A stretch of 64,000 nucleotides of DNA, from contig NW_027117350.1 of NCBI RefSeq assembly GCF_038025025.1, positions 1-64,000 on the forward strand, read 5' to 3'. The notes under the pieces were generated by a model. The model ran no database searches. It saw only the letters and a program-made list of their open reading frames with translations, and was not told the origin of the DNA. Numbering within the stretch: the first letter of the stretch is position 1; each line of letters begins with the position of its first letter. This document shows positions 12,194 through 62,500 of the stretch, piece by piece. This DNA is from Phyllosticta citribraziliensis (Eukaryota). Position numbers and translations under genes: made by a program.

Positions 12194-12616
12194 TGTCACG
12201 ACTCGCAGATTTCTCATTATGCAGGTGAGGGCTAAAGGCAAACTGCTAGAAAATATATATATATCTTAATTAAATCTAATAAGTTAAAAGAATAAAATAT
12301 AAAAGATACTTACTACTTATATATTTTCTAGTCCTTCCTTTATACTATTCTACCTCTTATCCTTTATATAAGGGTCCTTAGTTATTATTAGGTAAGTTAT
12401 AAAGGTAAGGTGTTAATAGGCTATTGTGTGGTATCTTTCTAAGGCTGTAGTAGCTAGTGCTAGGCTATAGTAGCTAGTGCCAGCCTATAGGTTTTAGCCT
12501 AAGCTATAGTAGGCTGCTGCCTAAGGTGAGGCTCGTGCTTCCTATAACTATATAATGCTAGGTTTGTCCATGCTGGCCCTAGTACTTATATAGGTATATA
12601 TATGCCTATCATGACA
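12194..12616 (-). repeat. 3' LTR of A1 (423 bp)
   Basis: TGTCACG...CATGACA, matching the three other family A LTR copies. Confidence 0.95.
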
Positions 12617-12632
12617 TGCCCCCCCTAAAGAG
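12617..12632 (-). other. Polypurine tract of A1
   Basis: The minus strand reads ...TTTAGGGGGGGCA immediately before the TGTCA of the LTR. Confidence 0.8.
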
Positions 12633-13423
12633 AAGCTGAAATCATAGGAATTAGCAGCTATAGGTACTCGCACAGGCGCAGACTTGTAATATATAATGGC
12701 AGTAATTTGGCAATTTAAGTATTCTATATACATAGTATAATTATCAGTCTAGGTCTACTACTATACTATCTCTTTCTATTACTATCTCTTTCTATTACTA
12801 TCTCTTTTACCGCGCGATCTACAGAAGGTCACTATCTTACTTAGCTATATCTAAAGCTCCCCATTAAAGTACATTATTATCCCAGTCTAATTTAGCTATA
12901 ATCTAGTAAACTAACTGTCACGCGTAAAGGTTCTAATAATTTAAATAATTTATACCCTACTAATAGTAAAGCAGACATTCCTAGCTACCATGTACTTAAT
13001 ACATCTGCTACTTATTATAGTCTAGTCTATTAGGACTCATTACTGTTATACAAGAGTTGTAGTATTAAGTTATTATTATGCAGCATTATTTATAATCCAT
13101 TACAGTTACTACTCACTTAGAGAGCTATTTTAGCCAGCAGTATCTATAAGGACCATCACATAGAGTCCTAAGGTAAGTAAACTTTAATTCTATCTCTAAC
13201 TATTACTAATTATTATCTAGGCTATTAAGTAGTATTATATATCTAGGTTCTACTACTTTATCATCCCATCTTGCTAACTAATACAATTATAGAGGAGGAC
13301 ACTTATATAAAGACTTAGTTAGGCCAGGCTTTACTTATTTAGCTAGGAATAGCTACAGGCTTATCACTTTACCTATAGTATACTACAGTATCAGGTTCTA
13401 CTTAATTAGTGTTATTAGTTGTC

Positions 13424-14316
13424 ATGTAAGGTTTATCATCTATAGCTATATAGCCTGCTACTAACTAGCCTATTATACTACATCGCTGCTGGTTCACTAT
13501 TGCGCAGCCTATTTTAGAGGAAGAAGGTAAAGAGCCTGCTTATACATGCTGTTATTATAATCCTGCAGCTCATTAGGTTCTAGTAGCTAAGTACTTACTA
13601 CCTGCTACTTTATATAATAGTAGCAACAGTAAGATTCACATTACAGCGTTGCTAGTTAGCTCTAATAAGGCACCTATTAAGTAGGACTTTAAGTTGATAC
13701 TTTACATCCCTTATAAGAATATAGAGAGTATCGTGCGAGTAAGTTTATCTTACTAATATAAGGGATTCTTATCTAACTAACTATATAGGCGCACCTTAGT
13801 AGTTCTAAAGTATAAGAGCGCGCTAAGCATATCTTGGCCTTAGGTAACAGCATACCTTACTCATATATTATAGTTTCTACTTAGTAATTTAACTACTTAT
13901 TAGTTAAAACTTAAGCTAGCTTGCGCGATACTTTTCTTATCTAGTATACCAGAATTAATAACCCTATTAGCTGCACTAAGTGTCGCGATAATACTAATAC
14001 TTATATATTTATTAGTTATTACTACCTGCCTAGTTTCTTATAGGGCTGCTGCACTAACTGCCTTTAAGGTACAGGTAACCTTAACTACACTATAAGTAAC
14101 TTAAAGGGTGCCAAGCTGCCTGCTTATTATAAGAGGCATAAAGACAAAATTTATATAGAGGAGTTCTAGAACTTGCGCTACTAAGCTAGGTTAGAGGATT
14201 AAACTAATTAGGCTTTAGCTAAGTAGGACATCCTGCTTAATAAGCTAGAGGATCTAGAGGAGATGGTCTTATATAATAACTATTATAATAAGAAGAAGGG
14301 AAAAGGAAAGAAGTAA
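13424..14316 (+). pseudogene. Antisense spliced gene in A1 encoding a Cys-rich DUF3716-like protein (~260-280 aa), RIP-disrupted
   Basis: Intron 13739-13788 (GTAAGT..CTAAC..TAG) joins two exons in frame, and there is an upstream intron at 13173-13220. The A1/A2 consensus reads AFLIQ.T..NPVSCTKCR......F.S.CHLPGF..GRCTNCL.GTGNLNC and ends KKKGKGKK*. Confidence 0.75.
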
Positions 14317-14499
14317 AGGGTAGAAATTAAAGAAGAGGATAGTAAGGAATAAGTAGTAAAAAGGAGAGACTAGAGAGTAGAAGTTAAGATTAATAGTATT
14401 TATATAAGGGTAGATAGTAAACTAATTAGTCTACTTTCTATATCTTTATAATATTTACTATAGGCCTAAGTAACTTATTTTATTATTACTTTCTATTTT

Positions 14500-17400
14500 A
14501 ATCTATAGTTCTTCTTAGAGGAAGGCAGCCTTCTATTTTTCTAGATTTTTTAGTAGTCCTGCTATGATGGGGTATAATGAGTAGAATTCTTTAATTTTCT
14601 ATAGTGCTCTACTAAAAGAACTTATATTATACTACTAGTTATCTTAGTTATATCTAGTCTATTTAACTTGGTATTAAAGCTTCCTATATAAGACTTGACT
14701 AGCTTAAATATAGTCTACTTCCTACTTAGGCTTATCTTAAATAATCTTAGGTTTAGGTTTAGTATAGTCCTAACTAGGAAGCTGTTCTATTTTGGCCTTA
14801 TATAGCCTGTTAGTATAGAAAAGATTAACTATCTTTATATATAAGGGAAGATTAAGGATATAAGAGGGTCCTTCTATTCCTATAATCTTAAAAGGTCTAG
14901 TATTAGGGAAGTCTAATTTAAGGTTTAGCTGATTAGTAGACCATCTGGTTTTCTTAATATAGATATAATCTCTAACTATAAAGTCTAGCGCGCGACGGTA
15001 TTTATTAGCTTATTAGTATATATACTCTTAGGATTTAAGAATAAGATTCTTTATAAATTTAAAAGCTTCTTATCTTCTCTTTTATAGTGTTTATACTACT
15101 ATGCGAGCTATCTTTTCTAGTTACTAGGGGGTCTCTGTTCTTTATTACTAGTTGTAGTGTATTTAAGGGGAATATCCTAACTTAATCTTAAAAGGTAAAA
15201 GTCTAGTAGCTTTATAGGGAAGTGTTACTTGTGTAAGGTCTATTAATAGTAGAAGATTAGACTAATTATTCTGAAAGTAATTGATAAAAGGTCTTAATCT
15301 TTATATAAGATGCTGATTAATAATCTCTATAATACTATTAGTTTAAGAGTGGTAGGATGAGTTAAAATACTACTCTATACTAGTTAGCTTATATAGTTTA
15401 TTTATAAATGCTGAGATGAACTAAGGGCCTTAGTTAGATAGGATAGACTTAGGGTTTCTATAAATATAGTAGATATGTTTATAAAAGAGTCTAGAGACTC
15501 CTTTAGTATTAATCTTCTTTATATAAGGTAAGCTAAAGGTTCTTTAACTTAACTAGTCTATAATAACTAGGATTGTATTGTAGCCTTTTTAGTTTTTAGG
15601 CATCTCTTTAAAATCTATGGCTAAGTGTTGCTAGGGTTGAGTAGGAATCTCTAGGGGTTATAGAAGGCCTAGGTCTTTATTATAAAACTCTTTTATTTAG
15701 CAGTAAATATGGCATCCTTGCCTGTAAATATTAATTATGTGATTTATAGCTGGCTAGTAGTAATATTACTTAAGGAGTTTTCGCATCTTTATAATACTAG
15801 GATGGGTGGTTATATAGGTAGTATATAAAGTGTTAAGCATTCTCGCGCGGAGGTTATTATAATCTAGTATAAAGAGTATACTATATTATAGTAAAAGACT
15901 ATCCTTTAGTTCCTAACTATTTCTTTATTTAAGGTCCTTTAAGAGGGCTTTCTATCTTTAGAGTTCTAATTTAGAATTTTCCTAGTTTATATGGAGGAGT
16001 TTATTTAAAAATAATACTAGAGGAGGAAGTTCTTATTCTAAAATAGAAAGAGGGATAATAGTCTCTAGTAGGATAAGGTATATCTCTTATATAGCTCTTA
16101 CCTTTTCTTTTTAAGTCTTTAAGTCTTCTTATTTTTAAGTAAGGTAATTAGCGATGATATTTTCCTTTCCTAGTTAATAGGAGAATTATATGTAGAACTC
16201 TATAAAAAACTTAGACTATCTAGCTTGTTATTAATTAAGTTGTTGTTTAGTAGAGTAGTACTCTAATGCCTAATAGTCTATAATTGCAAGAAAAGGTTTT
16301 TTAAGGCTAATAAGTATTAGTCTCTATTCTTCTAGTCTATTCTTAATAGCTAGTAGTTCTTTATCTGAAATTCTATAATGAAGTTCTGCGTCTACTATTA
16401 CCTTAGAGTAGAATGCTACTAGTTTCTAATTGCATGAAGGTTGCTAGAGCTGCATTAAAATGCTAGTAGTAACTCTATTACTTGTATTAGTCTCTATATA
16501 AGTGTTAAGAGTAGGGTTATAATTGGCTAGGAGTATATTACTATATATTAGCTTCTTAAGTTATTAAATTGCCTCTTCTTCTAGGGGTCCTAGTTGTTGC
16601 TATTTTGCCTTAGAGTATAGTTTCTCTAATAGCTAGCTGATTTATCTATAGTTAGGGAGAAATTGTTAGTAGAAATTATAGAAACCTAGGAAGGATTAAA
16701 GAGCTTTAAGGGTTTTTAGTATTAGCTAGTTTTATATAGGTTCTACCTTATCTAGGTCTATTTAAATGCCTTCTATAGAAATGATGTATCTAAGAAACTT
16801 TATATGAGTAACTAAAAACTCGCTCTTCTTTAAATCCACCTATAGTCCTGCTTTTTATAGTCTTACTAGTACTTTTTTTACTTGTTCCTTATGCTCTGCA
16901 GGGTTTTTAGAGATAATAAGCATGTTGTCTATAAAAGCCATAATAAAATTGTCTAAATACTTAAAGAGAACCTGGTTAATGAAACGTTAAAAGGCTATAG
17001 GTCTGTTGCTTAATCTAAATAGTAAGATATGGTATTTAAATAAGCTGTATCTTATATAGAAGGTAGTCTTGTCTTTAGAATCCTTAGTAAGATGAATGTA
17101 GTGGAAAGCTTATTAAATATTAAGCTTAGTATAAATTTTGCCCTTTCTAATGCGCTAAAGCAACTCTATAATAAGAGGAAGGGGGTGTAAATCCTTAGTA
17201 GTTTATTTATTAAGCTATTAGTAGTCTATGTAAAATCTCTATCCCCTACTAGGCTTTTTTACTATAAGAATAGGAGAAGTATAGGTGGTAAAGCTCTTAG
17301 TAATAAAGCCTTTCTAAAGGTTCTTAATAATATACTCTTTTACAGCCTTAAGCTGCTCTAGAGACATTCTATAGAGAGGACTAGGTAGAAGCTCTAGTAG

Positions 17401-17922
17401 ACTATTATATATAAGAGATATTTTATAATTAACCCCCATGTAATATGGTAGTAGCTTATTAGACTCTATTTTAGAAAACACATCTTAAAATTCCTTATAA
17501 GTGGCTAGTAGCTTAGAAGCTAGTAATCCCTTAGTTTCCTTATCTTTAAGAGCTGCTTAAACTTGTATAAGGTTAATAGTGTAGATCTCTATTGGCGTAA
17601 CTTGTATTTTATAAATAGAAAGCTTAAATATATCTTGAGTTTAGAATTCAATTCCCTTAATAACCTGTACTAAGGGAAGGAGGTGTTTATTAAATTTTTT
17701 ATCTCTATAGTCTATATCTACTTGGTATTTTTTCTGCAGTTCTTTACTTTACACAGAGATTTTTAGTAGGTGTAGAAGATGCTAAAAGGACTAGTTGACT
17801 AGTAGCTGTCTCTAGACTAGTTTATATCATTTATAGTCTAGGAGGACGTCGTGCTAGTTAAAAAACTGTTACCTAAGAATCATGTTATTATAGCTAATAT
17901 TACAAATAAAAGCATAAGTAGA
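14500..17922 (-). pseudogene. pol remnant of A1 (partial PR, RT, RNaseH, IN, chromodomain)
   Basis: RT motif YLDNFIMAFIDNMLIIS at ~16910-16960. Chromodomain (de-RIP EWEVDHI..SRV...KLQYQVKWTG) at ~14550-14730. Confidence 0.88.
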
Positions 17923-18335
17923 TGCAGATTTCTTATTATACAGGTAAGGGCTAAAGGCAAACTACTAGAGAATGCGTATATATCTTAATTAAATCTAATA
18001 AGTTAAAAGAATGAAATATAAAAGATACTTACTACCTATATATTTCCTAGTCCTTCCTTTATACTATTCTACCTCTTATCCTTTATATAAGGGTCCTTAG
18101 TTATTATTAGGTGAGTTGTAAAGGTAAGGTGTTAATGGGCTGTTATGTGGTATCTTCCTAAGGCTGCAGTGGCTAGTGCCAGGCTGTAGTGGCTGGTGCC
18201 AGCCTGCAGGTTTCAGCCTAAGCTATAGCGGGCTACTACCTAAGGTGAGGCTCGTGCTTCCTATAACCGCGCGATGCCGGGTTTGTCTGTGCTGGCCCTA
18301 GTGCTCACATAGGCGCGTGTATGCCTATTGTGATA
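17923..18335 (-). repeat. 5' LTR of A1, lacking ~10 bp at its internal edge
   Basis: Matches 12204-12616 and is joined directly to protease-region sequence. Confidence 0.9.
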
Positions 18336-18489
18336 TATACTTACTTAGAATATTATAGGATATATATACCCTTTAGGATCTTAGAGTATATAATCCTAGT
18401 TTTAGGCTAGGGTCTATTTAATAGGTATAATAGGTATAATAGTTAGTCCTACTAGCTCTTACTAGTTCTTAGTAGTAGGTTAATCTATT

Positions 18490-20148: not shown

Positions 20149-20321
20149 TATTATAAGTTTAGTTAGGATATCTTTTCTTAAGTAAGGATTATATTATTAT
20201 TATTTCTATCTTAGCCCTAGGGCCCTACTTATTCTCATCTACTTACTTATACTACTAAGCCTACTAGCTAGTACCTACCTTACTTATCTAAGGTATCCCT
20301 AACTATCTACAGACTATAATA
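20149..20321 (-). repeat. 3' LTR of B1 (173 bp)
   Basis: TATTATAAG...CTATAATA (RIPed TG..CA), matching 31840-32012. Confidence 0.93.
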
Positions 20322-20462
20322 GTAGTAGCTAAAAAAGAAAGTTATCCTTAACTTAGAATTTACTATCCTCCTCTACCTATTAAGAAATATTCCCCTCCTA
20401 GGATAAGTAAAGAAAGAAAAGGAAAATTAGAAAGAAAGAAATAGATCTATACTAGGATATAT

Positions 20463-23390
20463 TTAATTACTAATATCCTTATCTTTATCTATATTAGACT
20501 AGTCCTTACTACCTATTATATTATTATCTTAAGGTAGGGCTAATAACTAGATAAGGAGGTTTTTCTATATATTAATACTATAACTACTTTTACCTTCTCC
20601 TAGTATAGGTATATAATATATAGTAATACCTATATCTATATAGAAATTAGGGTAAAGGTATCCTAAAGGAATATAGCCTATAAACTAATTAGTAAATCTA
20701 ATATTAGTACCTAGGAATTATTACTCTAGGCTATCTATATCCTATAATATATATAATATAAGTAGTTATAGGGTAAGTAGTCTAGTAACCTATATATATT
20801 TTAGAGGGTCCTCCCTAATATATTAGATTAGGTAGTTTAATCCTATATAAAAAGTAAGGTTATTAACTAGTATAGGAGTAATAAACTTATTAGGGATAAT
20901 TCCTCTAATAATAAGGTATATAGCTTAGTAAGGGTCTATTATAAGGAGTATAGCTATTAGGTCTATATATTAGTAGAGAGAGCCTACTTTACCTAAATTA
21001 GGGTATTAATATACTATATAGCTCACTAAGTACTCTAGGAAAGTAGCTATACTTAGACTAATAATATTACCTTAGTTAATAGGACCATCCTTAGGGATTA
21101 AGGGGTCTTTTATACTAGTATTAGATCTAATATACTTACTATTATTATTAGGTTTACCTAAAAGTAGCTTATCCTAAGTTATAAGTAGGGTATTATTAGT
21201 ATCTACTATAAATATAGTATAGTTAGGGTAGTCTAAGTAAACCTATAGAATAAGCTTATCTAGGCCTTTAGGTTTTATATCCTATAATATTATATCTTTA
21301 TTAGGAGGGGGTATACCTTAAAGTATTTCTATAAGCTCTACCTTATTATTATTAATAGGACTATTATATTAGTACTAACCTACTTCTATTCTAGAAGTAT
21401 AGAACCTAGTACCTATAAACTACTTATTCCTATTTTTTATAAGGGTAGTAGTAAATATATAGAGCTCTATAAGTAGTATATTACCTCTTATTATATAATT
21501 TATTATAAGAGTATAATAGCCTACTCTATCCTATATTTCTTACTTATAAAGGTACTACTTTATACCCTTAAAGACTAGGATATCTTTATATATAGAGAAA
21601 AGTAGTCTATTATAATTATAAATAGTAAGGCCTCTTATTACCTAGGGATATATCTTATTAATATTAGGGTTACTAGGCTTCTTTTTACTAATATACTTAT
21701 TATAGCCTTCTCTACTAATAAGTCTATACTACCTTATAAGTATTATATATTAGATCTTACTATCCTTATCTTAGTAATATAAGGCCTATCTATTAGGGTA
21801 ATAATATAGGTTTAGTCCTCTATCTTTATAGTAAAATAGCTAGAGTTAGTAGAGGTTATAGAACTTAAAATCTATTATTACTTAATAAGCTAAATAATAG
21901 AGGGTACCTATTATTATAGAGAATAGGCTTATACTAGGTAGGGAAAGGTACTAATCTTTAATAAATATACTTAAAATATAGTTAATAATAGGAAAGTTAC
22001 TAGTATCTATAAGGAATATAGTATCCTAGTCCTATTTATACTCTATAAAAGTCTTAGGGTTATAGAATAGATAGTATATACTTTTCTTTAGGAATAACTA
22101 GTCTCCTATTTTATCTTAGGGATTAACTACTACTAGTTTATCTAGTATAATATTAGGTATACCCCTTAGTTTCTTTAATTATATAATAATATTTAGTATA
22201 CTAGTAGTCTTCCCTATTTTCTTTATCTTCTATAATATAACTAGTCCTTTAAGGTCTACCCTTTCTTTTCTCTACCTTAGTATTAGGGTATCTAGGAATT
22301 CCTTTCCTAAATCTATATTATTATTAGAAACTTAGGGTATATATTAAATTATAGTTATAATAATTTTATTAGTATTATAGGAAGTATTAATAAGTTAGTA
22401 GGTTTACTTTCTAATAGCTAAATTCTAGGCCTATAGGTCTATATTAGTAATATCTACTATTTTATAGCTTACCTTAACCTATAAAGTTACTCTAATTATA
22501 CTAAAACTAGGAGGTATTTATATTAGGTAAGAAGCTAGTATTCCTATACTAAGAAGGCTTATAGCTAGATTAAGGGTAAGACTAGGTTAAGGTATAGTTT
22601 CTAATAAGAAGATAGGTATCTACTATCTCTTATCCTTAGTATCCTCCTCTAATTCTTTAGTAGTAAAGTACTTATACTTATTACTATAATTAGTATTATA
22701 CTCCCTTATATATATTTCTAGTATACTACTATCTTTATTACCTTAGTAAAAGCTATAGCCCTAGTATCCTAAGCCTCTAGCCCCTAATATACTATATCCC
22801 TATATAGTTATAGAGGTAGAAGGTAGTATATTTATTATTAATATATCTACTATCTATATTATAGTATTAGTATATAGGATAGTTATAAAGGGGTCTACTA
22901 TCTCTTCATTATTAATAACTTAGTTTAGTATATCCTATTATAAATACTTACTAGTATTAAGAGAGAAGTAGTTATTCTATACTTCTATTCTAAGGATAAT
23001 ATTATTTTACTTAAGGGTAGGTATACTATTACTAATAGTAGGGGTATTATTTAGTATTATATCTACTAGAGGAACTATACCTATATTAGGTACTATATTA
23101 TAATTATTATATAAAAGGTTTTACTATTCTTATAGGTTAGTAATATTTATTAGGGTAGTACTAATAAGTCTATTCCTATTATAGTCTAAAGGCCAACTAT
23201 ATTAGTCTCTTAGGTAGTTTATATATTTATATTATAGATAAGGTTATATAGTAAGGTTAATATAGGGTTATAAGTTAATATCCTATAGGGCCTAGTATTA
23301 ATTAGGTATATATACTATAGCTAGTATTAGTTACCCTACTAATATATAGCCCTCTTCTTACTTAGTAATACTTATATATATAAAATATTT
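20463..23390 (-). pseudogene. ORF3 of B1 (unknown product)
   Basis: Reverse complement of the B2 ORF3 at ~46200-49090. Confidence 0.6.
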
Positions 23391-23759
23391 TTAGTAGTAA
23401 TATCCTCCTAGGCCTCCCTTTATTAGGAGATACTTAGGTATACTATATTAGCTCCCTTTATAAGGTAGGTACTAATTTAGTACTCTTTCTTAGTAGTTTA
23501 GGGTTTCTTATCCTTATTCTTTATATTTAGTAGATAACCTTACTACTTTAATACTATAGGGATAGCTATTTCTAGTAGTATATATAGTAGTTTATTATAT
23601 AATAGCTTATCCTATAATAATTTATTATATACCTTAGTAGGTAGTAGCTTATCTATATTATTATTTTCCTTTAGGTCCCTAGGTATAATAGTAGTATATT
23701 AAGGTAGTCCTAATTTCTATTAGGGCCTATACTAGTCTAGCTTTACTATTATCTCTTTA

Positions 23760-29700: not shown

Positions 29701-30100
29701 ATTCTTAGGAGGAGGAGAGCTTAGTAGGAGTAGCTCCTCTATTTTATACTAGGTATACCTTTTCTAGTATTTCTATCCCTAGTTTTTACTAGAGAAATAA
29801 TTTCCCTCCTATAACTATAGTAGTCTTAATACTACTTAGCCTCTACCTTAGGGTATACTTATTTTAAGTATAGATAGGTATATACTAAGCTTCTTAAGTT
29901 ACTTATTAACCCCCTTATTTATTATAGTAAGGTTTATTATCTATACTTTCTATTATTTAGAGAATATATCTTAGAGTATATCTAGCTTTACTCCTAAAGA
30001 TTCTAGGGTTATAGTAGGCTACTAGATCTCCTTAGTCTAGTCTATAATACTATACTAATTATATATATATAGTAGTATTATATTATATAGGGGTAGCTAG
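23760..30100 (-). pseudogene. gag-pol remnant of B1 with C-terminal chromodomain
   Basis: RT and chromodomain motifs, colinear with B2. Boundaries are approximate. Confidence 0.85.
28738..28767. repeat. (GTTATA)5 microsatellite in B1 gag
   Basis: Read directly; same position in the element as 40745-40846 in B2. Confidence 0.9.
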
Positions 30101-31091
30101 TTATAGTATATATACCTTAGGGGAGGATTCTAGTTTTCTAGTAGCTATTAATAGGAGATAGGAAGACTACTATATAGGTATTAGCTAAAACCTAGACCTA
30201 TACTACTCTAGAAAATATTAGGTAGTTAATTAAAGGGTTAGTAAGAGTAGCCTTAAGGAGGCCTATAATTAGGTAGGAAGGGAGGTTATTTAAATTAGCC
30301 TTTATAAGTATAGCTAGTACCTTTACTAAAATTTAGTAGAATATACTAGTCTTTAAAATTATTATCTATAGAAGAATAGGGACTCTATAGATTATATTCT
30401 AGCTTATTATCTATAAATAGGCTACTAGTATAGGTAGCTAGCTACTTTCCTTTAAAAGGTTTTAGTTAAGAAGTATAAGGGGGTATTACCTACTTATCTT
30501 AGGGTTAATATAGCCTTATACTTATATATATCTATAACCAGAGTTATTAATAGGTATATATAGAAGTAGAGTAATATAAAGAAGATAACTACCCTTAAGT
30601 TAGTATAGATATTAGTAAAATAGGTTATTAAGGTTCTATAGATAGTATAAATTAGGGATAAATTAATATATAGTATAGAGATTTTAATTAAGGTTATCTA
30701 TAAAGTAAGGTAATAGGTATTTATACCTAAGAAGAGGGGGGATCTATTAAGTAGGTAATTAATTAGCCCCTTCCCTATTTAGATATAGTATAATTACTAA
30801 TAGGAGGAGTAGGTCCTAATAGTTTCTAGGTTAACCCTAGTAGAACTTCTAGGGTAATTATAGTAGGCCCTAGTAGTAACTAGGGTACTATCTTAGCTTA
30901 TAGCTAAGAAGGTACTTTAAGGACTATACCTAGGGCTAATACCTCTAGTATAGTAGGATATTCTAGTATAATTAGAGAAAAGTACTAGAATAGATTATAT
31001 AGGAACTAGGATACCCTTAAGCCTATACTTATATTATATTAGCCTACCTCCTTATATAGTATAATTAGGACTAGGTTTAGTAGTAAACCTA

Positions 31092-45790: not shown

Positions 45791-46199
45791 TAAATAAGGA
45801 GATAATAGTAAAGCTAGACTAGTATAGGCCTTAATAAAAACTAGGACTATTTTAATATACTACTATTATACCTAGGGATCTAGAGGAAAATAATAATATA
45901 GATAATCTACTACCTACTAAGGTATATAATAAACTACTATAGGATAAGCTATTATATAATAAACTACTATATATACTACTAGAAATAGTTATCCCTATAG
46001 TACTAAAGTAGTAAGGTTATCTACTAGGTATAAAGAATAAGGAGAAAAAACTCTAAATTACTAAAAAAGAGTACTAAGTTAGTACCTACCTTATAAAGGG
46101 AGCTAATATAGTATACCTAAGTACCTCCTAATAAAGGGAGGCCTATAAGGATATTACTACTAAAAATATTTTATATATATAAGTATTACTAAGTAAGAA

Positions 46200-51329: not shown

Positions 51330-51752
51330 TGTTACGACTTGCAGATTTCTCGTTACATAGGTGAGGGCTAAAGGCGAACTGCTAGAGAATATATATGTGT
51401 CTTAATTAAATCTAATAAGTTAAAAGAATAAAATATAAAAGATACTTACTACCTATATATTTCCTAGTCCTTCCTTTATACTGTTCTACCTCTTATCCTT
51501 TATATAAGGGTCCTTAGTTATTATTAGGTGAGTTATAAAGGTAAGGTATTAATAGGCTATTGCGTGGTATCTTCCTAAGGCTGTAGTGGCTGGTGCTAGG
51601 CTGTAGTAGCTGGTACTAGCCTGTAGGTTTTAGCCTGAGCTGTGGTGGGCTACTACCTAAGGTGAGGCTTGTACTTCCTATAACTATATAATGCTGGGTT
51701 TATCCGTGCTGGCCCTGGTACTTATATAGGCATGTATATACCTATTGTGACA
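51330..51752 (-). repeat. 3' LTR of A2 (423 bp)
   Basis: TGTTACG...TGTGACA. Confidence 0.95.
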
Positions 51753-52543
51753 TGCCCCCCCTAAAGAGAAGCTAAAATTGTAGGAATTAGCAGCTATAGG
51801 CGCTCATATAGGTGCAGACTCATAATATATAATGGTGGTGATTTAGTAATTTAAGCGTTCTATACGCGTAGTATAATTATTAGTCTAGGTCTACTACTAT
51901 ACTATCTCTTTCTATTACTATCTCTTTTACTATATAACCTATAGAAGGTTGCCATCTTACTTAGCTATATCTAAAGCTCCTTATTAAAGTATGTTATTAT
52001 CCTAGTCTAATTTAGCTATGATCTAGTAAACTAACTGTTATATATGAAGGTTCTAATAATTTAAATAATTTATACCCTACTAATAGTAAAGCAGATATTC
52101 CTAGCTGCTATATGCTTAATATGTCTGCTACTTATTGTGGTCTAGTCTATTAGGACTTATTACTGTTATATAAGAGTTGTAGTATTAAGTTATTATTATG
52201 TAGTATTATTTGCGATCTGTTATAGTCGCCGCTTACTTAGAGAGCTGTTTTGGCTAGTAGTATCTATAAGGACTATTATATAGAGTCCTAAGGTGAGTAA
52301 ACTTTAATTCTATCTCTAACTGTTGCTAATTATTATCTAGGCCATTAAGTAGCGTTATATATCTAGGTTTTGCTGCTTTATTATCCCGTCTTGCTAACTG
52401 ATATAATTGTAGAGGAGGACACTTATATAAAGACTTAGTTAGGCTAGGCTTTACTTATTTAGCTAGGAATAGCTGTAGGCTTGTTACTTTACCTATAGTG
52501 TACTATAGTATTAGGTTCTACTTAATTAGTATTATTAGTTGTT

Positions 52544-53436
52544 ATGTAAGGTTTGTCGTCTATAGCTGTATAGCCTGCTACTAACCAGCCTATTATGCTG
52601 TATTACTACTAGTTTACTGTCGCGCAGCCTGTTTTAGAGGAAGAAGGTAAAGAGCCTACTTATATATGCTATTATTATAATCCTGTAGCTTATTAGGTTC
52701 TAGTAGCTAAGTACTTGCTACCTGCTACTTTATATAATAGTAGTAATAGTGAGATTCGTGTTATAGCGTTGCTAGTTAGCTCTAATAAGGCGCCTATTAA
52801 GTAGGACTTTAAGTTGATGCTTTACATCCCTTATAAGAATATAGAGAGTGTTATGTGAGTAAGTTTATCTTGCTAATATAAGGGATTCTTATCTAACTAA
52901 CTATATAGGCGCGCCTTAGTAGTTCTAAAGTATAAGAGCGCGCTAAGCGCATCTTGGCCTTAGGTAATAGTATGCCTTGCTTATATATTATAGTTTCTAC
53001 TTAGTAATTTAACTACTTATTAGTTAAAACTTAAGCTAGCTCGCGCGATGCTTTTCTTATCTAGTATACTAGAATTAATAACCCTGTTAGCTGTACTAAG
53101 TATTGTAATAATACTAATACTCGCGCGTTTATTAGTTATTGCCACCTGCCTGGTTTCTTATAGGGCCGCTGTACTAACTGCCTTTAGGGTATAGGTAACC
53201 TTAACTGTACTATAAGTGACTTAAAGGGTGCCAAGCCGCCTACTTGTTATGAGAGGCGTGAAGATGAAATTTGTATAGAGGAGTTCTAGAACTTATACTA
53301 CTAAGCTAGGTTAGAGGATTAAACTAATTAGGCTTTAGCTAAGTAGGATATCCTGTCTAATAAGCTAGAGGATCTAGAGGAGACGGTCTTATATAATAAC
53401 TATTATAATAAGAAGAAGGGAAAAGGAAAGAAGTAA
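52544..53436 (+). pseudogene. Antisense spliced DUF3716-like gene in A2
   Basis: Same structure as in A1 (offset 39120), with introns at 52293-52340 (GTGAGT..GCTAAT..TAG) and 52859-52908. Confidence 0.75.
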
Positions 53437-53619: not shown

Positions 53620-56600
53620 AATCTATAGTTCTTCTTAGAGGAAGGTAGCCTTCTATTTTTCTAGATTTTTTAGTAGTCCTGCTATAATGGGGTATAATAA
53701 GTGGAATTCTTTAATTTTCTATAGCGCGCTGCTAAAAGAACTTATATTATACTACTAGTTATCTTAGTTATATCTAGTCTATTTAACTTAGTATTAAAGC
53801 TTCCTATATAAGACTTAACTAGCTTAAATATAGTCTACTTCCTACTTAGGCTCATCTTAAATAATCTTAGGTTTAGGTTTAGTATATTCCTAACTAGGAA
53901 GCTGTTCTATTTTGGCCTTATATAGCCTATTAGTATAGAAAAGGTTAACCATCTTTATATATAAGGGAAGATTAAGGATGTAGAAGGGTCCTTCTATTTC
54001 TATAATCTTAAAAGGTCTAGTATTAGGGAAGTCTAATTTAAGGTTTAGCTAATTAGTAGACCATCTAGTTTTCTTAATATAGATATAATCTCTAACTATA
54101 AAGTCTGGCGCGCGATAGTATTTATTAGCTTATTAGTATATATACTCTTAGGATTTAAGAATAAGATTCTTTATAAATTTAAAAGCTTCTTATCTTCTCT
54201 TTTATAGCATTTATACTACTATATAAGCCATCTTTTCTAGTTACTAGGGGGTCTCTATTCTTTATTACTAGTTATAGTACATTTAAGGGGAATATCCTAA
54301 CTTAATCTTAAAAGGTAAAAGTCTAGTAGCTTTATAGGGAAGTATTACTTGTGCGAGGTCTATTAATAGTAGAAGATTAGACTAATTATTTTAAAAGTAA
54401 TTAATAAAAGGTCTTAATCTTTATATAAGATGCTGATTAATAATCTCTATAATACTATTAGTTTAAGAGTAGTAGGATGAGTTAAAATGCTGCTCTATAC
54501 TAGTCAGCTTATATAGTTTATTTATAAATGCTGAGATGAACTAAGGGCCTTAGTTAGATAGGATAGACTTAGGGTTTCTATAAATATAGTAGATATATTT
54601 ATAAAAGAGTCTAGAGACTCCTTTAGTATTAATCTTCTTTATATAAGGTAAGCTAAAGGTTCTTTAACTTAACTAGTCTATAATAACTAGGATTATATTA
54701 TAGCCTTTTTAGTCTTTAGGCATCTCTTTAAAATCTATAGCTAAGTATTACTAGGGTTGAGTGGGAATCTCTAGGGGTTATAGAAGGCCTAGGTCTTTAT
54801 TATGAAACTCTTTTATTTAGCGGTAAATATAGTATCCTTACCTATAAATATTAATTATATGATTTATAGCTGGCTAGTAGTAATATTGCTTAAGGAGTTT
54901 TCGCATCTTTATAATACTAGAATAGGTAGTTATATAGGTAGTATATAAAGTGTTAAGCATTCTTGTATAGAGGTTGTTATAATCTAGTATAAAGAGTGTG
55001 CTATATTATAGTAAAAGACCATCCTTTAGTTCCTAACTATTTCTTTATTTAAGGTCTTTTAAGAGGGCTTTTTATCTCTAGAGTTCTAATTTAGAATCTT
55101 CCTAGTTTATGTGAAGGAGTTTATCTAAAAATAATACTAGAGGAGGAAGTTCTTATTCTAAAATAGAAAGAGGGATAATAGTCTCTAGTAGGATAAGATA
55201 TATCTCTTATATAGCTTTTACTTTTTCTTTCTAAGTCTTTAGGTCTTCTTATTTTTAAGTAAGGTAATTGGCAATAATATTTTCCTTTCCTAGTTAATAA
55301 GAGAATTATATGTGGAATTCTATAAAAAACTTAGACTATCTAGCTTATTATTAATTAAGTTATCGTTTAGTAGAGTAGTACTCTAATACCTAATAGTCTA
55401 TAATTATAAGAAAAGGTTTTTTAAGGCTAATAAGTATTAGTCTCTATTCTTCTAGTCTATTCTTAATAGCTAGCAGTTCTTTATCTAAAATTCTATAATA
55501 AAGTTCTATATCAGCTATTACCTTAGAGTAGAAGGCTACTAGTTTCTAATCGCATAAAGGTTATTAGAGCTGCATTAAAACACCTATAGTAACTCTATTA
55601 CTTATATCAGTCTCTATATAAGTATTAAGAGTAGGGTTATAGTTAGCTAGGAGTATATTACTATATATTAGCTTCTTAAGTTACTAAATTACCTCTTCTT
55701 CTAGGGGTCCTAGTTATTGCCATTTTACCTTAGAGTATAGTTTCTCTAATAGTCAGCTAATTTATCTATAGTTAGGGAGAAATCATTAGTAGAAATTATA
55801 GAAACCTAGGAAGGATTAAAGAGCTTTAAGGGTTTTAGGTATTAGCTAGTTTTATATAGATTCTACCTTATCTAGGTCTATCTAAATACCTTCTATAGAA
55901 ATAATATATCTAAGGAACTTTATATAAGTAACTAAAAACTTGCTCTTCTTTAAATCTACCTATAGTCCTACTTTTTATAGTCTTACTAGTACTTTTTTTA
56001 CTTATTCCTCGTGCTCTGCAGGGTCTTTAGAGATAATAAGCATATCATCTATAAAAGCTATAATAAAATCATCTAAATACTTAAAGAGAACCTAGTTAAT
56101 AAAATATTAAAAGGCTACAGGTCTATTACTTAATCTAAATAGTAAGATACAGTATTTAAATAAGCTATATCTTATATAGAAGGTAGTCTTATCTTTAGAA
56201 TCCTTAGTAAGATAAATACAGTAGAAAGCTTATTAAATATTAAGCTTAGTATAAATTTTACCCTTTCTAATGCGCTAAAGTAACTCTATAATAAGAGGAA
56301 GGGGGTGCAAATCCTTAGCAGTTTATTTATTAAGCTATTAGTAGTCTACATAAAATCTCTATCCCCTACTAGGCTTTTTTACTATAAGAATAGGAGAAGT
56401 ATAGGTAGTAAAGCTCTTAGTAATAAAGCCTTTCTAAAGGTTCTTAATGATATACTCTTTTACAGCCTTAAGCTATTCTAGAGATATTCTATAGAGAGGA
56501 CTAGGTAGAAGCTCTAGTAGACTATTATATATAAGAGATATTTTATAATTAACCCCTATGTGATATAGTGGTAGCTTATTAGACTCTATTTTAAAAAACA

Positions 56601-59145: not shown

Positions 59146-59146
59146 C

Positions 59147-59569
59147 TATTATGACTTGTAGATTTCTTGTTATATAGGTGAGGGCTAAAGGTAAACTGCT
59201 AGAAAATGTGTATATATCTTAATTAAATCTAATAAGTTAAAAGAATAAAATATAAAAGATACTTGCTATCTATATATTTTCTAGTCCTTCCTTTATACTA
59301 TTCTACCTCTTATCCTTTATATAAGGGTCCTTAGTTATTATTAGGTGAGTTATAAAGGTAAGGTATTAATAGGCTATTACATGGTATCTTCTTAAGGCTG
59401 TAGTGGCTGGTGCTAGGCTGTAGTAGCTAGTACTAGCCTGTAGGTTTTAGCCTAAGCTATAGTAGGCTGCTACCTAAGGTAAGGCTTGTGCTTCCTATAA
59501 CCGCACAATGCTAAGTTCATCCGTGCTGGCCCTGGTACTTATATAGGCGCGTGTACGCCTATTGTGACA
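59147..59569 (-). repeat. 5' LTR of A2 (423 bp)
   Basis: TATTATGAC...TGTGACA, followed by the TSD. Confidence 0.95.
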
Positions 59570-62500
59570 TATAGAAACCTTATATATAGAAGAGGTAATA
59601 GGTAATAGCCTTATATAGGGAGTTAACCCTATTATCTAGGAGTCCTTCTAAGATAATAGCCTTTATAAGGTAGTTAACTATAATAAGGATATAGGAGTAG
59701 TTCTAATTATAGAAATAGGAGCCTAGGAGGTACTTAATAAAGTTAAAGCTAATACTAGTCTAGTAATAGGCTAGTAGTTCTAATAGTTAAAGGAAACCTT
59801 ACTTCTTTTAGTTATTAGTAGAAGACTAGTAGTATTAGGTATAAGTATAGGTAAAGGTTAAGTAGTTATTCTTTAGATTAGGCTAGTAGTAGGAGTAGCT
59901 AATAAGTTTACTTATTAACTTATAGCTAGGGTAATTAAGGTATAGTAGGAGGTAGTAAGCCTATATAATCTTAAGATATAATTTAGAGTTATTAAAGATA
60001 AAGAGCTAGTTTTTTATAAAAAGATAGCTATTCTTAACCTTTAGGTATCCTATATAGAGGTAATAGCCCTTTTTAATAAGGAGTACTAGGATCTTTAGAT
60101 CCTAGTTCTATATAGCTACTATAAGGTATTATATATCCTTATTAGTCTTATAGGCCTTAGTAATAAGTTCCTATAGGTAAGTAGTACTAGGGGCTCTATA
60201 GCTTTCTTCTAGTAGAGTAGTTAATAAGGATAGAGGGGATAGATTAGGAGTAGTAGAGATAGGCTAGTCTATAATATAAGGTATAGTAGAGAGGTAGGAG
60301 ATAGCTAACTATAAGGTAGGGTCTAGATAGTATTATTTTAGAATAGTTTAGTATTAATAAAATTAATAGATATTAGAGTTATCCTAAGAAAGGTCCTAGG
60401 AGTATTTAATAAGAGAGTTAGGTTTCTTACCCTACTTACTAGAGTAATATATAATTTTAAAGTTAAACTTAGATAGGAACTTAGCTTAGTAGGCCTATTA
60501 GTAATTAAGATTCTTAGTAGTTATAAACTATTCTAGGTTCTTATAGTCTAAGAAGATCTTTACTAGGTTATCTAGTTCTATACTAATAGCTATAGGGTAC
60601 TAGGACTCTAGTACCTTAATAATAGTAAGTAACTCCTTATTATAGATTTTATAGTTATACTCTATTAGGGATATTTTCTTAGAGAAGAAGGCTACTAGAT
60701 AAAGTTATCTATTAATAACTTAGAAGAGAACTCTAATAATAATAAAGTTAGAGGTATCTATCTTAATCTATATTTCCTACTTAGGATTAAAGTAGGTAAG
60801 TATTAAAGTAGAAGTAAATATAGTTTTAAGAGCCTAAAAGGTATATTTATATTTAGAGGTCTAATTTAGGGTAGTATAGATATAGTATTTCTTTTCTAAG
60901 GGGGTAGTCTTTAGTTCCCCTTTAATAAGTTCTATAAGTAGTTAAGTAAGTAAGGAGAAATCCTTAATAAAATAATAGTAGAAGTTAATAAAGCTAAAGA
61001 AGGCCTAGATATCTTTAATAGACTTTAAGGTTTACTAGTCTAGTACTACTTCTATCTTTTTAGGGTCTATATAGATACTATTAATACTAATAAGAAGGCT
61101 AAGATATTTAACTTCTTCTATATAGAACTTATACTTATAGATATTAATAAAGAGTTTCTAGTTAAGTAGGTAGATAATAATCTTTTAGATATATTCCTTA
61201 TATTCCTCTAGTATCTAATTAAAGATAATAATATTATTAAGATAGGCTATAGCCTAAAGGTTAAGATAGTCCTTAAAGGAGTTATTAATATAGCTTTAAA
61301 AGATTCTAAGAGTATTATAGAGTCTAAATAGTATTACTAGATACTTAAACTAACTATAGTAGGTAGTAAAGGCTATTTTCTATTTATCTCTTATAGTAAT
61401 CTAAATTTTATTAAAAGTAGTAATAATATTAAGTTTTATAAAGTACTTATAACCCTAGAGGTACTAGAGAGTCTTAACTATATTTAGAATTAGGTACTAG
61501 TTCTTAATAGTAATCTTATTAAGGCCCTTATAATTAATATAGACCTAAAGGCCTCTACTAGGTTTTTAGATAATAAGTACTAGAACTATAGCTAGGGAGG
61601 AGTTAAGGTAAGTATATCCTTTATATATAAGGTTATTAATATAGTAGTAGATTACTTCTATCTTTTATAGATTAAAAGGTTAGTAGTTATAAATAAATAG
61701 GGGATCCTTTCTAGCTTTAAGGGTAATTTTATAGTCTTTAAAGGAGTAATTAGGTAGAGATTTAGCCTAGTCCTAATTAAAGATAGAGATAAGGTTATAG
61801 AGGTAATTAGAGATTTATAATTTAAGTTTAGAAGATAAGAGCTTAAGTTTTCCTTTCTTAAACTTCTTAAAGTCTTTAGGAGTAATAGTATTTATTATTA
61901 TAGAATAGAGATAGGTAGTAGAGTTAGTTAAAAAGAGAATATCTAAGTTATAGTCCTATTTATAGATAATTTAGTAAAAGGATATAGTATTAATAAATTT
62001 TATATTAAAGACTAATTACTTTATACCTTATTATAATAGAGGGGTATCTATAATAAGGATTTAGATTAGTTTTCCTTTAATAAGATAACTAGCTTAGAGG
62101 TAGTTCTTAAAAGAGAGAGTAATTAAGTACTACTTATAATTAGTAGTAGTATTATACTTAAAGAGCTAGGAGTCTCCTAAGATAAGAGGAATTTATAAAA
62201 TAGTAGTAATATAGTAGAAGACCTAATTAATATAGTCTTCTAATACTATATTTACTAGGGTAGTATATTTAAGGATAGAGTTAACTAACCTATTAGTATT
62301 AAGGAGCTTTATAGGTAACTAGAGTAGGAATATATTAATATAATATTTATATATAATTCTTATTAATTATATTTACTTTAGTACTACTATTAAATAAGAT
62401 CTCTATAGAGGAACTATCTATTAAAGAGTAAAAGACTAAGTAGCCCCTAACTTAGGGTTAAGTAATATCTAGTATTAAAATCTTATAAAATAGTAAGCTA

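What the first reader, a model, noticed from the sequence alone, without database searches (positions are those of the whole stretch)
13173..14316. Antisense, intron-containing DUF3716-like cargo gene inside a chromovirus (family A)
Seen: between the pol end and the PPT, both copies carry a plus-strand gene with 48-bp and 50-bp GT-AG introns and CTAAY branch points. A third intron may end at ~13292. Splicing 13739-13788 keeps the frame. The two-copy consensus gives a disordered N-terminus, a CxxC...C...CxxC...C core and a basic KKKGKGKK tail. Knowledge: the pattern resembles fungal DUF3716 (PF12511, function unknown); I recognised this from memory, not from a search. Inference: antisense orientation lets the introns survive the RNA intermediate, so this is a separately transcribed accessory gene. 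It plausibly encodes a nuclear Zn-binding regulator or anti-silencing factor. The second copy is at 52293-53436.
Basis: partly seen in the sequence, partly recalled or inferred. Interest (0 to 1): 0.8.

Follow-up and report, generated by a model that had tools for sequence, protein, structure and literature searches.

The report
Dead antisense gene inside fungal retrotransposon
Two heavily mutated copies of a fungal virus-like jumping gene carry, on the opposite strand behind their polymerase gene, the remains of an extra intron-containing gene for a cysteine-rich, probably DNA-binding protein; antisense passenger genes of this sort are already known, so this is a modest addition, not a surprise.

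Summary
Both copies of a RIP-degraded Ty3/gypsy element lie on the minus strand: RVT_1, RNase H and rve hits are all on that strand. Each has a 1.9-kb interval between the pol stop and the polypurine tract.

On the plus strand this interval carries three canonical GT-AG introns of 48, 43 and 50 nt. It also carries a 366-codon spliced frame ending at TAA 14314-14316. Frame, purine/pyrimidine periodicity and depletion of stop-prone codons all switch phase at the introns. These statistics reach only about the top 5% of the window.

The Cys-rich core gives PF12511 (DUF3716) as the only Pfam hit in both copies: 19.3 and 12.4 bits, below the cut-off of 22. The elements' own integrase is sub-threshold too.

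The coding-like signal extends upstream of 13173, so the 5' end is unresolved.

No intact relative, homologue or transcript was found. Antisense genes between pol and the 3' LTR are known (Boty brtn, plant elements), and DUF3716 genes are known in a DNA transposon. "Anti-silencing" is untested. Verdict: a probable dead antisense DUF3716-type accessory gene, of moderate interest.

The parts
12200..12617 (-). 3' LTR of element copy 1 (the element runs on the minus strand)
   Evidence: Self-BLAST LTR pairs; termini TGTCAC...GTGACA read.
12618..12630 (-). Polypurine tract: plus strand TGCCCCCCCT, which is A-G7-CA on the minus strand, abutting the 3' LTR
   Evidence: Sequence, identical in both copies.
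12791..13172 (+). Upstream coding-like stretch, a candidate first exon with its 5' end unresolved. Codon starts fall at pos%3=2. The alternative ATG-start exon 13078-13172 is in another frame and looks less coding-like.
   Evidence: Low stop-prone (YRR) counts of 3-6 per 79 codons in this frame. Periodicity phase agrees. The ATG-exon has 5 of 31 YRR and the wrong periodicity phase. Only donor 13173 with acceptor 13246 (74 nt) has a consensus donor and joins this frame to exon 2.
13173..13220 (+). Intron 1, 48 nt (alternative acceptor at 13246 gives 74 nt)
   Evidence: GTAAGT (copy 1) / GTGAGT (copy 2), CTCTAAC, TACTAAT, CTAG in both copies.
13221..13425 (+). Exon 2
   Evidence: 1 of 68 YRR codons in frame against 7 and 13 in the other two frames. 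The periodicity minimum falls at the predicted codon position 3.
13426..13468 (+). Intron 2, 43 nt (alternative in-frame acceptor at 13507 gives 82 nt).
   Evidence: GTAAGG...TACTAAC then TAG (copy 1) or CAG (copy 2). It is the only consensus-like donor that joins the two frames.
13469..13738 (+). Exon 3
   Evidence: 5 of 90 YRR in frame against 8 and 15. The periodicity phase shifts by one here, as the intron length predicts.
13739..13788 (+). Intron 3, 50 nt
   Evidence: GTAAGT...CTAACTAAC...TATAG in both copies.
13789..14316 (+). Exon 4 with the Cys-rich core, acidic stretch, basic tail KKKGKGKK (14290-14313) and stop TAA (14314-14316)
   Evidence: Purine/pyrimidine periodicity p=6.7e-5; that is in the top 5.7% of 1270 windows.
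13960..14070 (+). Match to Pfam PF12511 (DUF3716), profile positions 11-50 of 59, in copy 1
   Evidence: E 0.0011, 19.3 bits, cut-off 22; the sole hit at E<=10. 16.9 bits with a longer query.
14317..14532 (.). Spacer between the two convergent stop codons (cargo gene and pol)
   Evidence: Coordinates worked out.
14533..14721 (-). End of pol: chromodomain-like motif (14569-14721) and the first in-frame stop (14533-14535)
   Evidence: Translation. The motif was recognised by eye only; Pfam gave no Chromo hit at E<=1.
15349..15642 (-). Integrase core of pol, copy 1
   Evidence: rve E 4e-6, 27.5 bits, below its cut-off of 32.6.
17923..18339 (-). 5' LTR of copy 1, missing about 10 nt at its inner end. 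Copy 1 also lacks ~2.1 kb that copy 2 has.
51332..51753 (-). 3' LTR of copy 2, followed by the same PPT at 51754-51766
51911..53436 (+). Copy 2 of the cargo gene. Every part is at copy-1 coordinate + 39120: introns 52293-52340, 52546-52588 and 52859-52908; stop 53434-53436.
   Evidence: Collinear without indels. Introns shown. 21 internal stops.
53083..53214 (+). Match to PF12511 (DUF3716), profile positions 12-58 of 59, in copy 2
   Evidence: E 0.15, 12.4 bits; the sole hit at E<=10.
55906..56382 (-). Reverse transcriptase domain of copy 2
   Evidence: RVT_1 E 9.4e-17.
59149..59573 (-). 5' LTR of copy 2. The element is flanked by a TATAG/TATAG duplication.

Best explanation
WHAT IT IS. The interval between pol and the polypurine tract of this minus-strand Ty3/gypsy LTR retrotransposon family holds the remains of an accessory gene on the opposite strand. 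It ran tail-to-tail with pol and had at least four exons and three short spliceosomal introns. It encoded a protein of 366 codons or more (likely ~450 with the upstream stretch), with a DUF3716-type Cys-rich module, presumably metal-binding, near the C-terminus and a short basic tail.

HOW IT WOULD WORK (inferred). The gene is transcribed from its own promoter near the PPT or 3' LTR side, in the direction opposite to the genomic RNA. Its introns appear in the genomic RNA only as reverse complements. They are therefore not spliced out and are copied faithfully at each round of reverse transcription. The product is most likely a sequence-specific DNA-binding factor acting on the element's own transcription or integration; this is inferred from what papers report for other DUF3716 proteins.

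CURRENT STATE (shown). Both copies in the window are dead. Repeat-induced point mutation has put 17 and 21 stop codons into the frame and turned several of the Cys into Tyr.
For: ORIENTATION AND PLACE. All pol domains are on the minus strand and the PPT abuts the low-coordinate LTR.

GENE MODEL. The model is 1098 nt, or 366 codons, in both copies.

STOPS LOOK RIP-BORN. 120 of 120 differences between the copies inside the model are transitions; in 12790-17700 it is 363 of 371. All 6 of 6 stops private to one copy face CAG, CGA or TGG in the other. The 16 shared stops are all TAA or TAG in copy 1 (8 + 8; copy 2: 9 TAG, 6 TAA, 1 TGA).

RIP-PROOF STATISTICS (purine/pyrimidine alphabet).
- Stop-prone YRR codons: 23 of 365 (6.3%) in the model, against 12.3% expected (p 1e-4). 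Five other frames give 8.5-18.4%. The elements' own pol gives 10.4%.
- Codon-position periodicity is 0.55 / 0.54 / 0.40 purine.
- Its phase is 0, then 1, then 0 in exons 2, 3 and 4, exactly as introns of 43 and 50 nt predict.

INTRONS. Three introns carry GTRAGK donors, CTAAC/CTAAT branch motifs and YAG acceptors, conserved in both copies.

DOMAIN. PF12511 is the only Pfam family at E<=10 for both copies (19.3 and 12.4 bits). The two copies have lost different Cys, so each is scored with a different part of the motif missing. As calibration, the bona fide rve domain of the same elements also scores below its cut-off: 27.5 and 23.4 bits against 32.6.

FAMILY-WIDE PRESENCE. Contigs of other public runs bridge the junction between the cargo's 3' end and the pol end: 14238-14494 with 1 other letter, 14349-14525 with 0, and 14084-14377. 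Contigs cover 28, 22, 16 and 9 of 30 bins of the interval in the 4 of 4 runs laid. So the cargo is not private to these two copies.

NO NESTED ELEMENT. No inverted termini flank the interval: the longest arms are 12-30 nt at 77-92% complementarity and none is at the borders.

PRECEDENTS READ AS PASSAGES. Boty of Botrytis and Sclerotinia carries the antisense gene brtn between pol and the 3' LTR (PMC7264820, PMC8365987, PMC4227169). Two DUF3716 genes ride in the Zymoseptoria transposon REP9 (PMC8232023). NCU05718 binds double-stranded TTAGGG directly (PMC4650311), and its Fusarium orthologue is described as a DUF3716 protein (PMC10776026).
Against: - Both Pfam scores are below the curated cut-off of 22 bits.
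- A profile of the two copies found no true relative among 1.84 billion representative proteins. The 3 hits at E<=0.001 are repeat proteins matched through a short GAK/NCL-like stretch repeated 5-10 times. Two word-indexed searches found none either (12 and 600 candidates, 0 scored).
- When the frame may be chosen freely, 5.2% of 5032 placements in the window have as few stop-prone codons. 5.7% of 1270 windows have as strong a periodicity. The window is mostly old coding sequence, so these are modest ranks.
- Intron-like motifs are no commoner in the window than in simulated sequence.
- Periodicity in exons 2 and 3 taken alone is weak (p 0.07 and 0.11).
- The ATG-start exon 1 is not coding-like (5 of 31 YRR, wrong phase), and the 5' end is unresolved.
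- In the 43-nt version of intron 2 the branch motif ends only one base before the acceptor AG.
- Function, expression, metal binding and DNA binding are all inferred, not shown.
Confidence: 0.6

Rival explanations
1. Passenger. A host DUF3716 gene, or part of one, was captured once by an ancestor of these copies by transduction or recombination. It was carried along without any role in the element's life cycle.
For: A paper on plant elements states that some additional ORFs arise by a transduction-like event (PMC11963269, passages). DUF3716 genes are common host genes in fungi by the BLAST hits reported in PMC8232023. Nothing here shows selection on the cargo: both copies are dead. Some contigs of other runs are 99-100% identical, RIP changes included, so they may be the same insertions rather than independent copies.
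Against: The same paper says transduced ORFs occur in one or a few copies. Here contigs with several different RIP patterns cover the interval: 157 contigs laid in one run, spread over identity classes 27/41/68/21. An intron-bearing antisense gene sitting exactly between pol and the PPT, in a tail-to-tail arrangement, is the layout of the conserved accessory ORFs of Boty and of plant elements (PMC7264820).
Confidence: 0.2
2. No gene. The frame, the introns and the Cys pattern are chance products of AT-rich, RIP-mutated non-coding DNA in a long pol-to-LTR spacer.
For: Intron-like motifs occur at the simulated rate in the window (37 against 32.4 +/- 6.3). The frame statistics are only in the top ~5%. 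The Pfam hits are sub-threshold. No homologue was found.
Against: Four signals coincide in one place and one phase: stop-prone codon depletion, periodicity, intron positions of the right length classes, and a Pfam hit in the predicted frame. In about 38,000 residues of other RIP-read frames scanned at E<=0.01-0.05, the only Pfam hits were genuine retroelement domains. So spurious hits are rare in this material. The six core Cys are recovered only when the two copies are compared, each Cys/Tyr pair differing by a RIP-type G-to-A change.
Confidence: 0.12
3. Nested insertion. A fragment of another mobile element that carries DUF3716 genes (like the class II element REP9) inserted behind pol in the ancestor. 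The gene would belong to that element, not to the retrotransposon.
For: DUF3716 genes are documented cargo of a DNA transposon (PMC8232023).
Against: No terminal inverted repeats or target duplications bound the interval. No transposase-like Pfam hit appears in any of the six frames of the element apart from pol. There is no likeness to anything else in the window.
Confidence: 0.08

Closest known systems
[quoted passage not shown] 2011, Virology; title seen only in reference lists. Described in passages of PMC7264820, PMC8365987 and PMC4227169.)
   Same: A fungal Ty3/gypsy element whose gag-pol has a chromodomain (PMC4227169), with an extra gene antisense to pol, placed between pol and the 3' LTR (PMC7264820).
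   Different: Whether brtn has introns or a DUF3716 domain could not be checked. The paper is not held and no brtn sequence was on hand. Here both copies are RIP-dead, whereas Boty has GC-rich expressed copies (PMC8365987).
Antisense additional ORFs between pol and the 3' LTR of plant Ty3/gypsy elements (Grande, RIRE2, Retand with TRP28 domain, PvRetro13)
   Same: Same position and orientation. They are conserved through families, and the proteins are proposed to be nuclear or DNA-binding regulators (PMC7264820 passages; PMC11963269 abstract and passages).
   Different: Plant hosts. Retand is a non-chromovirus lineage. The protein families are unrelated (TRP28 = PF04195 there). Their pol-to-LTR regions are much longer (2.9-6.6 kb there, 1.9 kb here).
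REP9-1 and REP9-2, DUF3716 genes inside the class II (IS3EU-like) transposon REP9 of Zymoseptoria tritici (PMC8232023, passages)
   Same: A DUF3716-type protein carried as a non-transposase gene by a fungal mobile element. REP9-1 has six Cys in 193 residues. Copies in sister species are likewise RIP pseudogenes.
   Different: A DNA transposon with inverted termini and a 6-bp duplication, not an LTR retroelement. Those proteins pass as DUF3716 by the authors' annotation, whereas here the score is sub-threshold. Direct sequence comparison was not possible.
Spliced antisense genes of retroviruses such as HBZ of HTLV-1 (mentioned in PMC11963269; that HBZ is spliced is my recall)
   Same: A gene read from the minus strand of a retroelement, with a nuclear regulatory product.
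   Different: Animal retrovirus, bZIP protein, transcription starting in the 3' LTR. No sequence relation.

Membership tests
Pfam PF12511 (DUF3716) | Score at or above the curated gathering cut-off (22 bits) | tested here: inconclusive
   19.3 bits (copy 1) and 12.4 bits (copy 2), both below 22, but the sole hit at E<=10 in each. The sequences are pseudogenes in which each copy has lost different Cys. The certain rve domain of the same elements is also sub-threshold. The RIP-corrected sequence could not be passed to the tool.
Pfam PF12511 (DUF3716) | Conserved Cys-rich core covering most of the 59-position profile | tested here: met
The matches span profile positions 11-50 and 12-58 of 59.
Pfam PF12511 (DUF3716) | Detectable homologues among annotated DUF3716 proteins | tested here: not met
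   0 true relatives (3 spurious repeat proteins; 12 candidates, 0 scored; 600 candidates, 0 scored). RIP damage and the size of the libraries make this a weak negative.
Antisense additional ORF between pol and 3' LTR (aORF-3R class of PMC7264820) | Lies between the end of pol and the PPT / 3' LTR | tested here: met
   PPT 12618-12630, gene up to 14316, pol stop 14533-14535.
Antisense additional ORF between pol and 3' LTR (aORF-3R class of PMC7264820) | Coding strand opposite to gag-pol | tested here: met
   Pol domains are on the minus strand. The frame, introns and Pfam hit are on the plus strand. The minus-strand frames of the interval have 11.7-17.8% stop-prone codons.
Antisense additional ORF between pol and 3' LTR (aORF-3R class of PMC7264820) | Present in most copies of the family, conserved like the other element genes | tested here: inconclusive
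   Present in 2 of 2 copies in the window. Contigs of 4 of 4 other runs cover parts of it and bridge to the pol end. Some of those contigs may be the same insertions, and no intact copy was seen.
Antisense additional ORF between pol and 3' LTR (aORF-3R class of PMC7264820) | Transcribed from its own promoter | not testable with these tools
   No run on record as RNA holds the stretch.
Chromovirus (Ty3/gypsy with C-terminal chromodomain) | Domain order RT, RNase H, integrase on one strand between LTRs | tested here: met
Chromovirus (Ty3/gypsy with C-terminal chromodomain) | Chromodomain at the end of integrase | tested here: inconclusive
   Pfam Chromo: 0 of 2 copies at E<=1. A chromodomain-like motif is visible by eye in the translation at 14569-14721; its recognition is from recall.
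brtn of Boty | Sequence homology to BRTN | not testable with these tools

The most novel reading that the evidence does not exclude
DUF3716 is a mobile-element-borne, sequence-specific DNA-binding module that fungal transposons of both classes have recruited repeatedly: an LTR retrotransposon here, the DNA transposon REP9 in Zymoseptoria. In this chromovirus lineage it would be an essential antisense regulator. It might tether the pre-integration complex or the LTR to particular repeats (telomere-like or heterochromatic), or switch LTR transcription. The host DUF3716 genes, including the telomere-repeat binder NCU05718 and its orthologue PSC58, would then be domesticated descendants of such element genes.
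Probability: 0.15. Interest if true: 0.7.

Novelty: new variant of a known kind. Interest (0 to 1): 0.4.

Why it matters
Antisense accessory genes of LTR retrotransposons are known but functionally obscure. In fungi the only described case found in my searches is brtn of Boty. DUF3716 is a widespread fungal domain with no assigned function.

A second, independent association of DUF3716 with a mobile element would give the domain a testable role as a DNA-binding factor serving transposons. It adds to the transposon-borne REP9 genes (PMC8232023) and to a paper showing that one family member binds telomeric double-stranded DNA directly (PMC4650311 with PMC10776026). It would also give accessory-gene biology a fungal model.

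The case shows as well that intron-bearing genes can be recovered from RIP-ruined repeats by statistics that RIP cannot alter (the purine/pyrimidine alphabet). The copies here are dead, so the value lies in pointing to where to look in genomes that hold intact relatives.

Tried and rejected
PROTEIN HOMOLOGY SEARCHES
- HMMER profile of the two exon-4 copies against 1.84 billion representatives: 3 hits at E<=0.001. All are bacterial-type repeat proteins matched 5-10 times over about 22 residues. Rejected as spurious.
- Word-indexed searches: copy 1 at near length (12 candidates, 0 scored); both copies against longer proteins (600 candidates, 0 scored).
- Protein Data Bank by profile: 5 chains at E 0.1-1.9 (Elongator Elp5, HAUS2, a dynein docking subunit). 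Rejected.

STRUCTURE
- AlphaFold2 on the two-copy domain alignment: mean pLDDT 38.5, with 0 of 74 residues at 50 or above. Unusable, so no fold search was made.
- ESM Atlas: it would not take a reading with stops read through. Not pursued.

SEARCHES FOR OTHER COPIES
- RIP-tolerant purine/pyrimidine patterns of the core (60 nt) in metagenome contigs: 0 matches, twice.
- The elements' pol in viral contigs: 373 pattern matches, 0 confirmed.
- No whole genome is held for the window.
- Earlier-findings look-ups: nothing.

SEQUENCING RUNS
- No RNA holder is listed.
- One contig of a run guessed to be RNA crosses intron 3 unspliced at 13669-13805, but the run's kind is a guess and the contig carries adapter ends. 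It says nothing either way.
- Bins without cover in some runs are not interpreted.

OTHER CHECKS
- Pfam on exon 3, on the upstream stretch and (by a slip) on a wrong frame of exon 2: no hits.
- ATG-start exon 13078-13172: kept only as an alternative.
- Nested-transposon termini: none.
- A second cargo of the same kind in the other element family of the window: none by Pfam or tblastn, and none by a G-x-C-x-N-C scan, where only the two known copies matched.
Full report
SETTING. The window is AT-rich (24-33% G+C throughout) and is built of repeats. A self-comparison shows two copies of one LTR element. Copy 1 has LTRs at 12200-12617 and 17923-18339; copy 2 at 51332-51753 and 59149-59573. The internal parts are 91.6% alike over 5736 nt. 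Between 12790 and 17700 the copies are collinear at a fixed offset of 39120. They differ at 371 sites, of which 363 are transitions. C/T differences are mostly followed by A or G, and G/A differences mostly preceded by T or C. This is the signature of repeat-induced point mutation (RIP), so the host is a fungus.

ORIENTATION OF THE ELEMENT. I read all six frames of copy 2 through their stops with X. Pfam gave hits in one frame only, on the minus strand: RVT_1 (9.4e-17), RT_RNaseH_2 (9.6e-12) and RT_RNaseH (1.4e-11). The integrase core follows on the same strand in both copies (rve 4e-6 and 7.1e-5). Directly after the low-coordinate LTR the plus strand reads TGCCCCCCCT in both copies. On the minus strand that is a G7 polypurine tract abutting the 3' LTR. 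Copy 2 is flanked by TATAG on both sides. After a chromodomain-like motif, the first in-frame stop of pol is at 14533-14535 (translation). Pfam did not confirm the motif (0 of 2 copies at E<=1). About 1.9 kb therefore lies between pol and the PPT.

THE PLUS-STRAND GENE MODEL.
- 13173-13220 (48 nt): GTAAGT or GTGAGT, CTAAC and CTAAT, then TAG.
- 13739-13788 (50 nt): GTAAGT, CTAAC, then TAG.
The third intron he suspected, ending near 13292, has no usable donor, and the frame that stays open across that site is the better one. I find instead a 43-nt intron at 13426-13468 (GTAAGG, a perfect TACTAAC, then TAG in copy 1 and CAG in copy 2). It is the only consensus-like donor that links the two frames. 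An alternative acceptor at 13507 is also in frame. With exons 13078-13172, 13221-13425, 13469-13738 and 13789-14316 the model is 1098 nt, or 366 codons, ending in TAA.

STOP CODONS IN THE MODEL. It carries 17 internal stops in copy 1 and 21 in copy 2; 16 are shared. All 6 stops private to one copy face CAG, CGA or TGG in the other. That is what RIP does to Gln, Arg and Trp codons.

IS THE FRAME MORE THAN CHANCE? RIP makes only transitions, so the purine/pyrimidine sequence is untouched by it. I used two statistics in that alphabet.
- Stop-prone codons (pyrimidine-purine-purine, the class holding all stops and all codons RIP can turn into stops) make up 23 of 365 codons of the model (6.3%). The expectation is 12.3% (p 1e-4). 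The other plus frames give 8.5% and 18.4%, the three minus frames 11.7-17.8%, and the elements' own pol 10.4%.
- Purine content by codon position is 0.55 / 0.54 / 0.40. The position of the minimum moves from genomic phase 0 (exon 2) to 1 (exon 3) and back to 0 (exon 4). That is exactly the shift that introns of 43 and 50 nt impose.

CONTROLS TEMPER THIS.
- If the best of three frames may be chosen freely for three segments of the same sizes, 5.2% of 5032 placements in the window do as well.
- 5.7% of 1270 windows show periodicity as strong as exon 4. Most of the window is old coding sequence.
- Periodicity in exons 2 and 3 alone is weak (p 0.07 and 0.11).
- Loosely defined intron-like motifs occur 37 times on both strands, against 32.4 +/- 6.3 in simulated sequence. 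Only their clustering counts: three on one strand in 616 nt is about 8e-4 per placement and about 0.15 window-wide (my arithmetic).
- The ATG-start exon 1 is not coding-like (5 of 31 stop-prone codons, wrong phase).
- By contrast another frame upstream, from about 12800 to 13172, is coding-like. It could be joined to exon 2 by donor 13173 with acceptor 13246.
The 5' end is therefore open, and the protein may have been about 450 residues.

THE DOMAIN. The Cys-rich stretch of exon 4 gives PF12511 (DUF3716) as the only Pfam family at E<=10 in both copies. Copy 1 scores E 0.0011 at 19.3 bits over profile positions 11-50 of 59. Copy 2 scores E 0.15 at 12.4 bits over positions 12-58 (16.9 bits with a longer query of copy 1). 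Both are below the cut-off of 22 bits. Two things make me read this as a probable true match:
- The copies have lost different Cys to Tyr by G-to-A changes. Together they show an ancestral C-x2-C-x12-C-x9-C-x2-C-x8-C, with three more Cys outside it. Each copy is thus scored with part of the motif missing.
- The undoubted integrase core of the same elements is also sub-threshold (27.5 and 23.4 bits against 32.6). About 38,000 residues of other stop-read frames gave no spurious family at E<=0.01-0.05.
The basic tail KKKGKGKK (14290-14313) precedes the stop in both copies.

WHAT COULD NOT BE SHOWN. No relative was found:
- A profile search of 1.84 billion proteins returned only three repeat proteins matched through a short repeated stretch.
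- Two word-indexed searches returned nothing.
- The Protein Data Bank gave only chance-level matches.
- A structure prediction was unusable (pLDDT 38.5).
- RIP-tolerant DNA patterns found no copy in metagenome contigs, and pol found none in viral contigs.
- No genome is held for the window.
In public runs the family is present. Contigs bridge the cargo's 3' end to the pol end and carry mostly transition differences, for example 128 of 136 variant places in one run. So the cargo is part of the family and not private to these two copies. Some of those contigs are near-identical, RIP changes included, and may be the same insertions. There is no evidence on expression.

HOW IT MOST LIKELY WORKED. 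Shown: the position, the orientation, the introns and the Cys-rich core. Inferred: the gene was transcribed from its own promoter on the PPT side, towards pol. In the genomic RNA its introns appear only as reverse complements, so they escape splicing and are copied at each cycle. This is the usual explanation for intron-bearing antisense genes in retroelements. For the protein's role the only leads are from papers. NCU05718 of Neurospora binds double-stranded TTAGGG directly and has no annotated DNA-binding domain (PMC4650311, abstract and passages). Its Fusarium orthologue PSC58 is described as a DUF3716 protein (PMC10776026, passage). I therefore favour a DNA-binding regulator or targeting factor. 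'Anti-silencing' has no support. No inverted termini bound the interval, which speaks against a nested transposon. A passive captured host gene remains a serious rival.

COMPARISON WITH WHAT IS KNOWN. Antisense additional ORFs between pol and the 3' LTR are described for plant Ty3/gypsy elements: Grande, RIRE2, PvRetro13 and Retand, the last with a TRP28 domain predicted to bind DNA. Among fungi they are described for Boty of Botrytis and Sclerotinia, whose gene is brtn (PMC7264820 and PMC11963269, passages; PMC8365987 and PMC4227169, passages). The original brtn paper is not held, so I could not learn whether brtn has introns or a DUF3716 domain.

DUF3716 genes as cargo of a mobile element are described once: REP9-1 and REP9-2 in a class II transposon of Zymoseptoria tritici. 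REP9-1 has 193 residues and six Cys, and changing its expression alters pycnidia formation (PMC8232023, passages).

In the held library 'DUF3716' occurs in 2 papers and 'PF12511' in 1 (listing only). Searches on antisense genes of fungal LTR elements were. None links the domain to an LTR retrotransposon. Supplementary tables of these papers were not read and could hold such a link.

VERDICT. The thing belongs to a known kind (an antisense accessory gene behind pol), with a protein family not yet reported for LTR elements in the literature I could search. Both copies are dead and the function is inferred. Confidence in the best explanation is 0.6 and interest is 0.4.

Noticed in passing
20149-30865 and 38626-49402 (inverted pair): A second, 10.8-kb repeat family (90.9% identity). 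A minus-strand frame of the first copy gives SH3_Tf2-1 (E 1.9e-6) and a weak RT_RNaseH, so it is another Ty3-type element. Its pol seems to end near 24000, leaving more than 3 kb to the low-coordinate end. There, plus-strand (antisense) intron-like motifs sit at 20773-20826 and 20854-20923. It shows no DUF3716 hit at E<=0.05 and no likeness to the family-A cargo. It may carry its own antisense cargo.
   Followed up: partly
17922/17923 against 57043-59148: Copy 1 of family A lacks about 2.1 kb that copy 2 has next to the 5' LTR (PBS and gag side), together with roughly the first 10 nt of that LTR. It is an internally deleted copy.
   Followed up: partly
51327-51331 and 59574-59578; 12195-12199 and 18340-18344: Copy 2 is flanked by a perfect 5-bp duplication, TATAG. 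Copy 1 is flanked by AATAC and TATAC, 4 of 5 alike.
   Followed up: yes
12618-14700 against 51754-53836: RIP is strand-asymmetric between the two copies. Copy 1 has A where copy 2 has G 75 times (the reverse 25 times). Copy 2 has T where copy 1 has C 68 times (the reverse 25 times).
   Followed up: no
12758-12803: A short tandem repeat of 16-nt period (CTATTACTATCTCTTT-like) lies just inside the cargo interval near the PPT. Tandem arrays in the pol-to-LTR region are also reported for plant Retand elements (PMC11963269, abstract).
   Followed up: no
3234-3699, 24345-24813, 44741-45209: A ~470-nt stretch occurs three times at 68-69% identity. Two of the three lie inside the family-B copies.
   Followed up: no
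14400-14451: An imperfect 30-nt palindrome (77% complementary) sits in the spacer between the convergent stops of the cargo gene and pol. It could be a shared transcript-end signal. Untested.
   Followed up: no
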